Below are positions 8,062 to 8,376 of a DNA stretch of 64,000 nt, piece after piece. Source of the DNA: a virus (taxonomy: Duplodnaviria > Heunggongvirae > Uroviricota > Caudoviricetes); the IMG/VR virus record IMGVR_UViG_3300046318_000589. One strand, 5' to 3'. Made by a program: the position numbers and the translations under genes. Position 1 is the stretch's first letter, and every line of letters begins with the position of its first letter. Below the pieces are notes generated by a model. That model worked only from the letters and a program-made list of their open reading frames with translations, ran no database searches and was not told where the DNA came from.

Positions 8062-8084
8062 AAATTATTTTTCCCTATTTATAG

Positions 8085-8376
8085 TTTAATTAGCGAAGCA
8101 ATTATCAGAAGCGGTAATTATTATAGCATTATGTAGATTTGTTCTATCATTTAATCTGCTACAAGATTTGTTATTAATAAAAACGGTATTTGAACCGAAT
8201 GCTATAACATCCCCACAAGATACAGCATCGCCCTCTCGTGCGACCGCACGGTTATCTACAAAAACATTTTCACTTCCTTGTGTAATTTTATTTTCTAAAT
8301 GAATTGCATCATTAAAAATATGGGGGGACGTTTTGTCGTTTTTACGAGATATTGCGGAAATTTTATGAACCTTATT
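8085..8376 (-). CDS. PAAR-repeat tail spike tip protein (gp5.4-like), no in-frame ATG
   Basis: The minus-strand frame is open from 8376 to a TAA at 8085-8087. It encodes GSENVFVDNRAVAREGDAVSCGD...GSNTVFINNKSCSRLND PAAR-like repeats. There is no Met in the frame; the start may be ATT at 8361. Confidence 0.55.

What the first reader, a model, noticed from the sequence alone, without database searches (positions are those of the whole stretch)
8084..8093. Recurrent (G/C)CTAATTA plus TATAAA-like motif, a candidate late promoter, upstream of structural genes and homing endonucleases on both strands
The palindromic core CTAATTA, usually followed within 0-3 nt by an A/T block such as TATAAA or TTAAAA, lies 6-30 nt upstream of start codons. 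On the minus strand it precedes the gene starts at 714, 6870, 8061, 8376, 10311 (gp6), 13945 (tnpA-1), 16549, 17207 and 55289 (gp5-like lysin), and the GIY-YIG genes at 17892, 44223 and 47678. On the + strand it precedes the starts at 18087, 20645 (1764-aa protein), 32777 (gp13-like) and 58518 (GIY-YIG). The instance at 8061 reads GCTAATTAAACTATAAATAG and so also contains the T4 late consensus TATAAATA. Early or accessory genes instead show textbook sigma70 promoters, at 5243, 14806, 38866, 40666, 44360 and 55541. This looks like a phage-specific middle/late promoter or activator-binding site.
Basis: seen in the sequence. Interest (0 to 1): 0.6.

Follow-up and report, generated by a model that had tools for sequence, protein, structure and literature searches.

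The report
Variant T4-type late promoter, CTAATTA
An uncultured, distant relative of phage T4 marks its virion genes, and its own selfish DNA elements, with a strictly conserved (G/C)CTAATTA box that is very probably its late promoter, a two-base variant of T4's TATAAATA altered at the two bases that T4's late sigma factor gp55 reads in deep pockets.

Summary
CTAATTA is not over-represented overall (28 copies, 26.8 expected). However, 16 of the 28 lie 15-45 nt upstream of a start codon and point toward it (2% of positions; P~2e-20). It is the top 7-mer in an unbiased upstream-enrichment test. No one-mismatch variant is enriched, and neither is T4's TATAAATA.

The full motif is S-CTAATTA-NNN-TA-W-A-A. 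It precedes 11 of 13 annotated virion genes and 0 of 14 DNA-metabolism genes (P=6e-6). It also precedes all four GIY-YIG homing-endonuclease genes and both IS607-type tnpA genes.

Nine motif-bearing genes sit at divergent junctions. Three copies lie 6-16 nt after terminator-like hairpins, which leaves no room for another promoter. The box is the only invariant block upstream of gp6 in relatives with 58-90% gp6 identity. A 42% relative has TATAAATA sites instead.

The phage is T4-like. Walking along its 146.7-kb contig found a very divergent gp55-like protein and a gp45-like clamp in the T4 order 55-47-46-45.

The box differs from Aeromonas phage Aeh1's published CTAAATA late consensus by one base. 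It differs from T4's at -12 and -8, the two bases T4 gp55 inserts into deep pockets.

Verdict: a gp55-type late promoter and a new variant of a known kind. No transcription data exist.

The parts
726..741 (-). Late-promoter copy (gCTAATTAagaaaaca) 25 nt before the ATG of a 674-aa ORF that runs off the window
   Evidence: Divergent junction with uvsY.
6875..6890 (-). Late-promoter copy before the 138-aa ORF (start 6870)
   Evidence: It lies 6 nt after a terminator-like hairpin (-17.9 kcal/mol) plus T-run. Conserved in L013.
8079..8094 (-). The flagged copy, GCTAATTAAACTATAA, 32 nt before the baseplate-hub gene (start 8061). It overlaps the PAAR stop codon.
   Evidence: Conserved in L013.
8377..8392 (-). 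Late-promoter copy before the PAAR gene (probable ATT start at 8361)
8434..8449 (-). Extra copy inside an ~88-nt insert between gp6 and PAAR. Its sequence is identical to the start of the homing-endonuclease leader.
8453..8468 (-). Copy overlapping the gp6 stop codon. It lacks the downstream TA and its function is doubtful.
10322..10337 (-). Late-promoter copy 25 nt before gp6 (baseplate wedge)
   Evidence: Divergent junction. It is the only invariant block in the alignment with relatives at 90%, 71% and 58% gp6 identity.
13956..13971 (-). Late-promoter copy before IS607-type tnpA #1. It overlaps a divergent 12/12 sigma70 site (13939-13967, + strand).
16561..16576 (-). Late-promoter copy before the tail-tube-like gene (start 16549)
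17204..17219 (-). Copy 11 nt before the gp2 (DNA end protector) ATG. The A of the ATG falls on the conserved +11 A, so the mRNA may be leaderless.
   Evidence: Same spacing at L039:70.
17945..17960 (-). Late-promoter copy before GIY-YIG homing endonuclease #1, followed by the leader hairpin and preceded by a 12/12 sigma70 site (17994-17965)
18055..18070 (+). Late-promoter copy 31 nt before the gp8-like baseplate wedge gene
   Evidence: Divergent junction.
20614..20629 (+). Late-promoter copy 30 nt before the 1764-aa DUF4815 protein gene
25935..25950 (+). Late-promoter copy before the 73-aa ORF. It overlaps the stop codon of the 1764-aa gene.
26174..26189 (+). Late-promoter copy 25 nt before the 1191-aa tail-fibre gene
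32751..32766 (+). Late-promoter copy 25 nt before gp13, heading the gp13-gp14-gp15 operon
   Evidence: It lies 11 nt after a terminator-like hairpin (-19.1 kcal/mol) plus T-run.
44285..44300 (-). Late-promoter copy before GIY-YIG homing endonuclease #2 (ATG 44223), followed by the leader hairpin at about 44279-44250
45555..45570 (+). Late-promoter copy before the 134-aa ORF. It overlaps the uvsX stop codon.
47736..47751 (-). Late-promoter copy before GIY-YIG homing endonuclease #3 (ATG 47678), followed by the leader hairpin
49417..49432 (+). Late-promoter copy 35 nt before IS607-type tnpA #2 (ATG 49453)
55302..55317 (-). Late-promoter copy 27 nt before gp5 (hub/lysozyme, GTG 55289)
   Evidence: Divergent junction, 16 nt after a terminator-like hairpin.
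58442..58457 (+). Late-promoter copy before GIY-YIG homing endonuclease #4 (ATG 58518), followed by the leader hairpin at about 58463-58492

Best explanation
(G/C)CTAATTA is the late promoter of this T4-superfamily phage. It corresponds to T4's TATAAATA box at -13 to -6.

Proposed mechanism (inferred, not shown): host RNA polymerase core carrying the phage's divergent gp55-like late sigma factor binds the box on the non-template strand, probably tethered to the gp45-like sliding clamp. It melts the A/T-rich segment downstream and starts at the conserved T(+10)A(+11)W(+12) position, about 5-6 nt after the box. The resulting mRNAs have leaders of roughly 13-23 nt that still contain the Shine-Dalgarno-like sequence. 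In two genes the start would fall exactly on the AUG, giving leaderless mRNAs.

The box differs from T4's consensus only at -12 (A to C) and -8 (A to T). These are the two bases T4 gp55 flips into deep pockets. The clade's gp55 has therefore probably re-tuned those pockets.

Homing endonucleases and IS607-type elements resident in the genome carry the same box, so they are also expressed late.

Shown here: motif anatomy, placement, gene-class association, conservation in relatives, and the presence of gp55-like and gp45-like genes. Inferred: which protein reads the box, the start site, and the timing of expression.
For: Placement: 16 of 28 copies lie in the 2% of positions that are 15-45 nt sense-upstream of starts (P~2e-20). 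CTAATTA is the top 7-mer in an unbiased test.

Strictness: the 21 one-mismatch variants together score 8 of ~339, which is chance. CTAAATA scores 0 of 19, and T4's TATAAATA scores 3 of 24 under a wider 10-80 nt criterion, also chance.

No conserved -35: information content is about zero from -25 to -2.

Gene class: 11 of 13 virion genes carry the motif against 0 of 14 DNA-metabolism genes (P=6e-6). The two virion genes without it, gp14 and gp15, are internal to the gp13 operon.

Obligatory promoter contexts: 9 of 20 motif-bearing genes sit at divergent junctions. Three copies lie 6-16 nt after strong terminator-like hairpins with T-runs.

Start-site geometry: Shine-Dalgarno-like cores sit at +15..+24, downstream of the start predicted from T4 geometry. 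Two independent copies place an ATG exactly at +11.

Out-of-sample test: 41 kb of extra genome holds 5 copies against about 18 at the window's average density. All five are intergenic. The early-gene clusters carry none on the early-gene sense strand.

Conservation: relatives with 90%, 71% and 58% gp6 identity keep CTAATTA 26-29 nt before gp6 while the flanks diverge. A 42% relative has TATAAATA sites instead.

Machinery: the same genome (100% identical where it overlaps the window) encodes a 220-aa gp55-like protein. It matches PHROG 234 'late sigma transcription factor' at E=1.2e-7 and a profile of eight annotated gp55 proteins by hhalign at E=1.7e-4. It sits upstream of gp47, gp46, a gp45-like clamp and a gp44-like clamp loader, as in T4 and cyanophages.

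Literature: T4's box spans -13 to -6 with no -35 element and an A/T-rich melted segment (PMC2988020, PMC1524935). Aeh1 uses (a/g)CTAAATA together with a diverged gp55 (PMC1524935). T4 gp55 inserts the bases at -12, -9 and -8 into pockets, and those at -12 and -8 are deep (PMC7892883). T4-family homing endonucleases carry their own late promoters plus leader hairpins (PMC2988022).
Against: There are no transcription data of any kind. Timing, start sites and dependence on gp55 are all inferred.

The gp55 assignment rests on weak sequence similarity (17-19% identity; hhalign probability 49%; no PDB or NCBIfam hit) plus synteny.

No gp33 homologue was found in the ~105 kb examined.

Under a codon-shuffle null, avoidance inside genes is significant only on the sense strand. 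Antisense copies number 4 against 4.0 expected, whereas a promoter might be expected to be avoided on both strands.

One copy precedes nrdA, an early-type gene, although it lacks the downstream TA.

The +10..+14 block is more conserved than the general A/T richness reported downstream of T4 late promoters.
Confidence: 0.85

Rival explanations
1. It is a bipartite promoter read by a different factor. The TAWAA block at +10..+14 is the -10-like element and CTAATTA is an adjacent upstream element, either an extended -10-type contact or an activator site for an unidentified phage protein. Transcription would then start about +21 to +23.
For: The +10..+14 block is conserved at fixed spacing. At 8083 it happens to form a full T4 TATAAATA. 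gp33 was not found and the gp55 homology is weak.
Against: A start near +22 would remove the Shine-Dalgarno-like cores at +15..+24 and would lie beyond the ATG at four genes where the C-to-start distance is 11, 11, 19 and 24 nt. CTAATTA carries far more information than TAWAA and tolerates no mismatch. TATAAATA and TATAAAT are not enriched near starts. The box matches the published Aeh1 late consensus at 6 of 7 positions (PMC1524935).
Confidence: 0.07
2. It is an RNA-level signal in late mRNAs, such as a processing site, a translational operator or enhancer, or a stability element, rather than a DNA promoter.
For: The distance to the start codon is narrow (mode 25 nt). Inside genes the word is avoided on the sense strand only (0 against 5.7 expected), not on the antisense strand.
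Against: Three copies lie 6-16 nt after terminator-like hairpins and nine are at divergent junctions. No other conserved promoter element is present upstream that could produce an RNA containing them. In the homing-endonuclease genes the motif is 67-76 nt from the ATG, beyond a hairpin. gp14 and gp15 lack the motif although they must also be translated. One copy precedes an apparent non-coding repeat.
Confidence: 0.04
3. It is a sequence spread by mobile DNA (homing-endonuclease and IS607-type cassettes and their footprints) rather than a regulatory signal of the phage.
For: Six copies belong to four homing-endonuclease and two IS607-type cassettes. The copy at 8448 sits in an ~88-nt insert and matches the endonuclease leader.
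Against: The other ~15 copies share no flanking similarity with each other. They sit at orthologous positions before core virion genes in relatives at 58-90% gp6 identity. T4-family endonucleases are known to borrow the host phage's late promoter (PMC2988022).
Confidence: 0.03
4. It is a compositional or stop-codon-context artefact of an A/T-rich, compact genome.
For: The overall count equals chance. Six copies overlap the TAA stop codon of the upstream gene.
Against: Placement P is about 2e-20. No one-mismatch variant or same-composition word behaves this way. Orientation is strict. The word is conserved in relatives.
Confidence: 0.01

Closest known systems
Phage T4 late promoter TATAAATA (-13 to -6), read by gp55 with gp33 and the gp45 sliding clamp
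   Same: A short A/T-rich box with no -35 element and an A/T-rich melted segment downstream. It lies before virion genes on either strand with short leaders. The genome carries gp55-like, gp45-like and gp44-like genes in T4 order. Five of the seven core positions are identical (T-11, A-10, A-9, T-7, A-6).
   Different: C instead of A at -12, T instead of A at -8, and G/C instead of T at -13. T4's own consensus is not used here. There is a conserved TA-W-A-A start block. The gp55 is only about 17% identical to T4's. No gp33 was found.
Aeromonas phage Aeh1 late promoter (a/g)CTAAATA (Nolan et al. 2006, PMC1524935)
   Same: C at -12, a non-T base at -13, and an unusually diverged gp55. Six of seven core bases are identical.
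   Different: A to T at -8. The Aeh1-type word scores 0 of 19 at starts here. The phage is only distantly related to Aeh1; the nearest cultured relatives by gp6 are cyanomyoviruses, Pelagibacter phage HTVC008M and Methylophilales Melnitz phages at about 33% identity.
Cyanomyovirus late promoters (NATAAATA-type, e.g. S-PM2), and the 42%-gp6 relative L018
   Same: The same superfamily and the same gp55-gp47-gp46 synteny.
   Different: These keep the ATAAATA core. L018 has TATAAATA 13 nt before gp25 and no promoter-positioned CTAATTA.
Late promoter plus leader hairpin of T4-family homing endonucleases (I-TevI/II/III, segB, Aeh1 mobE, seg43(25); PMC2988022)
   Same: Free-standing GIY-YIG genes carry the phage's late box followed by a conserved hairpin with compensatory changes, then the ribosome-binding site.
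   Different: Here the hairpin lies wholly inside the predicted late transcript and does not sequester the ribosome-binding site. That resembles seg43(25) more than I-TevI.
T4 middle promoters (MotA box at -30 plus a sigma70 -10 element)
   Same: A phage-specific upstream box.
   Different: Only 3 nt separate CTAATTA from the downstream block, not 11-13 nt. The associated genes are late rather than early or middle genes. PHROG scans of the window's ORFs returned no MotA or AsiA match.

Membership tests
T4-family gp55-dependent late promoter | A single 7-8 bp A/T-rich box related to TATAAATA at the -10 position, with no conserved -35 element | tested here: met
   The core is invariant. Positions -25 to -2 carry about zero information. 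Identity is 5 of 7 to T4 and 6 of 7 to Aeh1 (PMC1524935).
T4-family gp55-dependent late promoter | The exact T4 consensus TATAAATA | tested here: not met
   There are 24 TATAAATA copies, 3 near starts, which is chance. The motif is a variant, as in Aeh1.
T4-family gp55-dependent late promoter | Located before late (virion) genes, on either strand, and not before early replication genes | tested here: met
   11 of 13 against 0 of 14, Fisher P=6e-6. One exception lies outside the window, before nrdA, and lacks the downstream TA.
T4-family gp55-dependent late promoter | The genome encodes a gp55 late sigma factor | tested here: met
   The 220-aa ORF at L028:14011-14673 matches PHROG 234 at E=1.2e-7 and a gp55 profile by hhalign at E=1.7e-4, probability 49%. 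It lies upstream of gp47, gp46 and gp45. The sequence similarity is weak.
T4-family gp55-dependent late promoter | The genome encodes a gp45 sliding clamp and a gp44/62 clamp loader | tested here: met
   The 237-aa ORF matches PHROG 223 'DNA polymerase processivity factor' at E=8e-8. A 318-aa AAA protein with a faint DNA_pol3_delta2 hit lies next to it. gp62 was not identified.
T4-family gp55-dependent late promoter | The genome encodes the gp33 co-activator | tested here: inconclusive
   No PHROG hit among small ORFs in about 105 of 147 kb. gp33 is small and fast-evolving, and some T4-superfamily phages lack it (PMC4621102).
T4-family gp55-dependent late promoter | Transcription starts about 6 nt after the box, only late in infection, and is coupled to replication | not testable with these tools
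   The support is indirect only: Shine-Dalgarno positions, two ATG codons at +11, and a conserved T/A pair at +10/+11.
Bacterial sigma70 promoter | A -35 TTGACA and a -10 TATAAT separated by 16-18 nt | tested here: not met
   No -35 conservation upstream of the box. Genuine 11-12/12 sigma70 sites exist separately, before early or accessory genes.
MotA-dependent middle promoter | An activator box centred near -30, 11-13 nt upstream of a sigma70 -10 element | tested here: not met
   The box and the downstream block are 3 nt apart, and the associated genes are late genes.

The most novel reading that the evidence does not exclude
This clade has re-coded the gp55-promoter pair at both deep-pocket positions (-12 A to C, -8 A to T). 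That would create a late-transcription system orthogonal to T4's TATAAATA and to Aeh1's CTAAATA. Most of the T4 pocket residues appear substituted in the gp55-like protein (N13R, L54N, R57S, F86Y, H95Y, Y97F, in a low-identity alignment). The resident homing endonucleases and IS607-type elements have adopted the new code. If so, this is a natural covariation case for working out how gp55 reads single-stranded promoter bases.
Probability: 0.55. Interest if true: 0.55.

Novelty: new variant of a known kind. Interest (0 to 1): 0.45.

Why it matters
Late promoters of the T4 superfamily are usually treated as near-invariant TATAAATA, and genome annotations often search for that string. Here a whole uncultured clade uses a different and equally strict word, so such searches would find nothing. 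The two changed bases coincide with the two deep base-binding pockets seen in the T4 gp55 cryo-EM structure. Together with Aeh1, which changes -12 only, this gives a graded natural series for testing how gp55 specifies bases. It also offers a possible orthogonal minimal promoter/sigma pair. Finally, it shows mobile elements (GIY-YIG endonucleases and IS607-type transposons) tracking the host phage's promoter code. None of this overturns current understanding. It extends a known mechanism.

Tried and rejected
- Searching the phage collection with 14 kb of the window by megablast found nothing. IMG/VR holds only one distant gp6 relative. The metagenome contigs and genome contigs collections do not contain this phage.
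- gp55, gp33 and gp45 were sought inside the window with PHROGs at strict and lenient thresholds and were not found. tblastn with cyanophage P-HM2 gp55 found nothing, even on the locus that carries the gp55-like gene, because the protein is too divergent.
- Identical IS607 TnpB copies and homing-endonuclease paralogues were tried as entry points to the rest of the genome. They returned only known contexts.
Ids from the listing of cluster members were accepted and allowed four 10-kb walks.
- phmmer against PDB sequences and a NCBIfam scan gave no hit for the gp55-like protein.
- Rfam found no family in the window or in the repeat-bearing gap. There are no tRNAs.
- I first took the dinucleotide-shuffle depletion inside genes (8 against 22.8) as avoidance on both strands. 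The stricter codon-shuffle null shows avoidance on the sense strand only, so I dropped that argument against an RNA-level signal. I replaced it with the terminator and divergent-junction argument.
- The three antisense copies at 44213, 47668 and 58528 are codons 2-3 (ATGATAATTAGC) of paralogous endonuclease genes and count as one event.

Full report
**What the window is.** The window has about 30% G+C and has no close DNA match among deposited phages. PHROG and Pfam annotation show a T4-superfamily myovirus.
- Virion genes: gp6, a gp8-like wedge protein, a baseplate hub, PAAR, gp5, gp2, gp13-gp14-gp15, a tail-tube-like protein and tail fibres.
- Replication, recombination and nucleotide-metabolism genes: uvsY, uvsW, uvsX, a gp41-like helicase, primase, thymidylate synthase, phoH and NAD-salvage genes.
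- Mobile elements: four GIY-YIG homing endonucleases and IS607-type tnpA/tnpB elements.

The nearest cultured relatives by gp6 are cyanomyoviruses, Pelagibacter phage HTVC008M and Methylophilales Melnitz phages, at only about 33% identity. The window is 100% identical, where they overlap, to a 146,692-bp JGI metagenome contig. That contig is circularly permuted relative to the window.

- CTAATTA occurs 28 times against 26.8 +/- 5.6 expected.
- 16 of the 28 copies lie 15-45 nt upstream of a start codon on the coding strand. That zone is 2.0% of all oriented positions (binomial P=2e-20). 21 of 28 lie within 10-95 nt.
- In an unbiased comparison of all 7-mers in the 45 nt upstream of ORFs against the whole window, CTAATTA ranks first (P=2.6e-15). 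Shine-Dalgarno-like words come next.
- The core tolerates no mismatch. The 21 single-mismatch variants together give 8 promoter-positioned copies out of ~339, which is chance. The Aeh1-type CTAAATA gives 0 of 19. T4's TATAAATA gives 3 of 24 near starts (within 10-80 nt), which is also chance.
- Aligning 22 copies extends the motif to S-CTAATTA-W-N-W-T-A-W-A-A. G/C is at -1 in 18/22, T at +10 in 17/22, A at +11 in 20/22 and A at +13 in 18/22. Nothing is conserved further upstream.
- The C of the box lies 24-34 nt before the start codon for 15 genes (mode 25), 19 and 11 nt before it for two, and 67-76 nt before it for the four endonuclease genes.

Six promoter-positioned copies were missed. Only TAATTA is palindromic, and the motif is strictly oriented.

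**Which genes carry it.** Eleven of 13 annotated virion genes have the box. The two without it, gp14 and gp15, abut gp13 in an operon. None of 14 annotated replication, recombination or nucleotide-metabolism genes has it (Fisher P=6e-6). Those genes, and several small accessory ORFs, instead follow near-perfect sigma70 sites at 5253, 13939, 14805, 19460, 30491, 31276, 44360 and 51491. All four GIY-YIG endonuclease genes and both IS607-type tnpA genes carry the box.

**DNA signal or RNA signal?** A dinucleotide-shuffle null suggested strong avoidance inside genes (8 against 22.8). A stricter codon-shuffle null shows avoidance on the sense strand only (0 against 5.7, P=0.002) and none on the antisense strand (4 against 4.0; three of the four are the same codons of paralogous endonucleases). 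Avoidance therefore does not separate the two readings.

Context does separate them.
- Nine of the 20 motif-bearing genes stand at divergent junctions, where they must have their own promoter.
- The copies at 6889, 32752 and 55316 lie 6, 11 and 16 nt after strong terminator-like hairpins followed by T-runs (-17.9, -19.1 and -15.6 kcal/mol). Nothing except the box can fit between terminator and gene.
- In the endonuclease genes the box is separated from the ATG by a conserved hairpin, so it is not tied to translation initiation.

**Where would transcription start?** T4's box occupies -13 to -6 (PMC1524935, PMC2988020). Aligning xCTAATTA with TATAAATA puts +1 at index +12, counting the C of the box as 0. 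The conserved T(+10)A(+11) pair looks like a pyrimidine/purine -1/+1 pair, so the start is probably at +11 or +12.

This fits the Shine-Dalgarno-like GGA cores at +15..+24. It also fits two independent copies, gp2 at 17218 and L039:70, that read CTAATTAnnnTATG, with the A of the ATG exactly at +11. These would give leaderless mRNAs. If the TAWAA block were instead the -10 element, the start near +22 would remove most Shine-Dalgarno sites and overshoot four start codons.

**Conservation.** gp6 homologues define a clade.
- In contigs with 90%, 71% and 58% gp6 identity, CTAATTA lies 26-29 nt before gp6. It is the only invariant block in the aligned upstream regions.
- In L013, all three copies precede gp6, the hub gene and the 138-aa ORF. 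In L017, three of four copies precede genes.
- The next relative, at 42% gp6 identity (L018), has no promoter-positioned CTAATTA. It has TATAAATA 13 nt before gp25.

The word is therefore a clade-specific innovation.

**Out-of-sample test.** Walking along the contig added about 41 kb. It holds five copies against about 18 at the window's average density, and all five are intergenic.
- One lies before a non-coding repeat and a tail-tube-like gene.
- One lies before the only minus-strand gene inside an early plus-strand cluster.
- One lies in a 690-nt gap, on the strand opposite the early genes.
- One is the ATG-at-+11 case.
- One lies before nrdA. It lacks the downstream TA and is the single mismatch to the gene-class rule.

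**The machinery.** Neither the window nor its right flank encodes gp55, gp33 or gp45. In cyanophage P-HM2 the order is uvsY-uvsW-x-gp55-x-gp47-gp46. Left of the window the contig encodes, in order:
- a 220-aa protein matching PHROG 234, 'late sigma transcription factor' (E=1.2e-7);
- gp47;
- a Ro60/TROVE protein;
- gp46;
- a gp45-like clamp (PHROG 223, E=8e-8);
- a gp44-like AAA clamp loader;
- NrdA and NrdB.

The 220-aa protein is 17-19% identical to known gp55 proteins and is invisible to tblastn, PDB phmmer and NCBIfam. It aligns to a profile of eight annotated gp55 proteins over 114 columns, from YVNNKE through EMIxDGIE to NPHAYITQ (hhalign E=1.7e-4, probability 49%). With the synteny, I put the gp55 assignment at about 85%. 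No gp33 was recognised.

**Comparison with what is known.** Nolan et al. (PMC1524935) found that Aeromonas phage Aeh1 uses (a/g)CTAAATA, with C at -12, together with a strongly diverged gp55. The present box differs from that by one base, T instead of A at -8. It differs from T4 at -13, -12 and -8.

The cryo-EM structure of the T4 late complex (PMC7892883) shows gp55 flipping the non-template bases at -12, -9 and -8 into pockets. The pockets at -12 (stacking on Y97) and -8 (hydrogen bond to T99) are deep. The two substitutions within the 7-base core here fall exactly on those two positions, and -11, -10, -9, -7 and -6 are unchanged. In a low-identity alignment, six of the seven T4 pocket residues differ in the 220-aa protein (N13R, L54N, R57S, F86Y, H95Y, Y97F; T99 is kept). 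This is suggestive only.

Late promoters followed by leader hairpins are already described for T4-family homing endonucleases (PMC2988022). [quoted passage not shown]

No paper in the searchable library reports CTAATTA as a phage late promoter.

**Verdict.** The motif is best explained as the gp55-type late promoter of an uncultured T4-superfamily clade, with a new strict consensus (confidence 0.85). It is a new variant of a known kind and is moderately interesting, chiefly as a natural specificity variant of the gp55-promoter code. All functional steps (timing, start site, the protein that reads the box) remain inferred.

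Noticed in passing
window 11899-14798: An IS607-type element (tnpB 12150-13376, tnpA 13367-13945) splits a nicotinamide phosphoribosyltransferase gene into an N-terminal piece (11899-12129) and a C-terminal piece (13974-14798). 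At the tnpA end, a perfect 12/12 sigma70 promoter (13939-13967, + strand) faces outward toward the C-terminal piece and overlaps the late box that faces tnpA. The second IS607-type copy (49453-51230) has the same pairing: a late box at 49418+ and an outward 12/12 sigma70 site at 49453-49426 on the minus strand.
   Followed up: partly
window 8086-8468: The PAAR gene has no ATG, GTG or TTG start. The codon aligned to the ATG of three relatives is ATT at 8361, preceded by TAAGG. In the relatives the PAAR ATG overlaps or directly follows the gp6 stop codon. In the window an ~88-nt insert separates the two genes. It carries three CTAATTA copies, one identical to the start of the homing-endonuclease leader, and the junction sequence looks duplicated. 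It may be a footprint of a mobile cassette.
   Followed up: partly
window 17918-17945, 44250-44279, 47704-47733, 58463-58492: The four paralogous GIY-YIG/NUMOD3 endonuclease genes share a leader hairpin (CCAACAcGATG-loop-CATCtGTTGG) between the late box and the ribosome-binding site. It shows compensatory changes: G-C to A-U in the 58443 copy and A-U to C-G in the 17959 copy. It does not sequester the ribosome-binding site, and its role is unknown.
   Followed up: partly
window 44213-44219 (+), 47668-47674 (+), 58522-58528 (-): Antisense CTAATTA copies formed by codons 2-3 (ATGATAATTAGC) of three endonuclease genes. They match the extended motif up to +11 and point outward toward neighbouring genes (uvsX, the ORF at 47822, the ORF at 58145). 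They could be embedded outward promoters, as described for some T4 seg and mob genes, or simply a coding constraint.
   Followed up: no
window 17965-17994 (-): Homing endonuclease #1 has a perfect 12/12 sigma70 promoter immediately upstream of its late box, so it may be expressed both early and late.
   Followed up: no
L028:12026-12513 and L028:16628-17683 (outside the window, same genome): The phage encodes a Ro60/TROVE protein. A 490-nt gene-free gap nearby holds two tandem ~85-nt repeats (...ACAGCGAGCAAATCCGTCAAGGATTGCGAAGCGT) with a late box between them. They are candidate Y-RNA-like non-coding RNAs. No Rfam family matches.
   Followed up: partly
L009:6518-7531 and L028:20576-21289 (outside the window): The genome appears to carry two sliding clamps: a gp45-like 237-aa protein and a DnaN-like 337-aa protein (weak PF02767 hit; PHROG 947 at E=4e-9).
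   Followed up: no
L038:12252-14981 (outside the window): The ribonucleotide reductase large subunit carries an intein with a LAGLIDADG endonuclease domain. This is one more mobile element in a genome already rich in them.
   Followed up: no
window 19517-20586 and 57726-58145: Precomputed Pfam hits suggest defence or counter-defence genes: Tad6 (19517-20062, behind an 11/12 sigma70 site), MC7/MC6 (20263-20586) and a GmrSD_N domain protein (57726-58145).
   Followed up: no
L038:12213 (outside the window): A CTAATTA copy lies 39 nt before nrdA, directly after a TATAAT hexamer, and lacks the downstream TA. It is the only copy found in front of an early-type gene.
   Followed up: no
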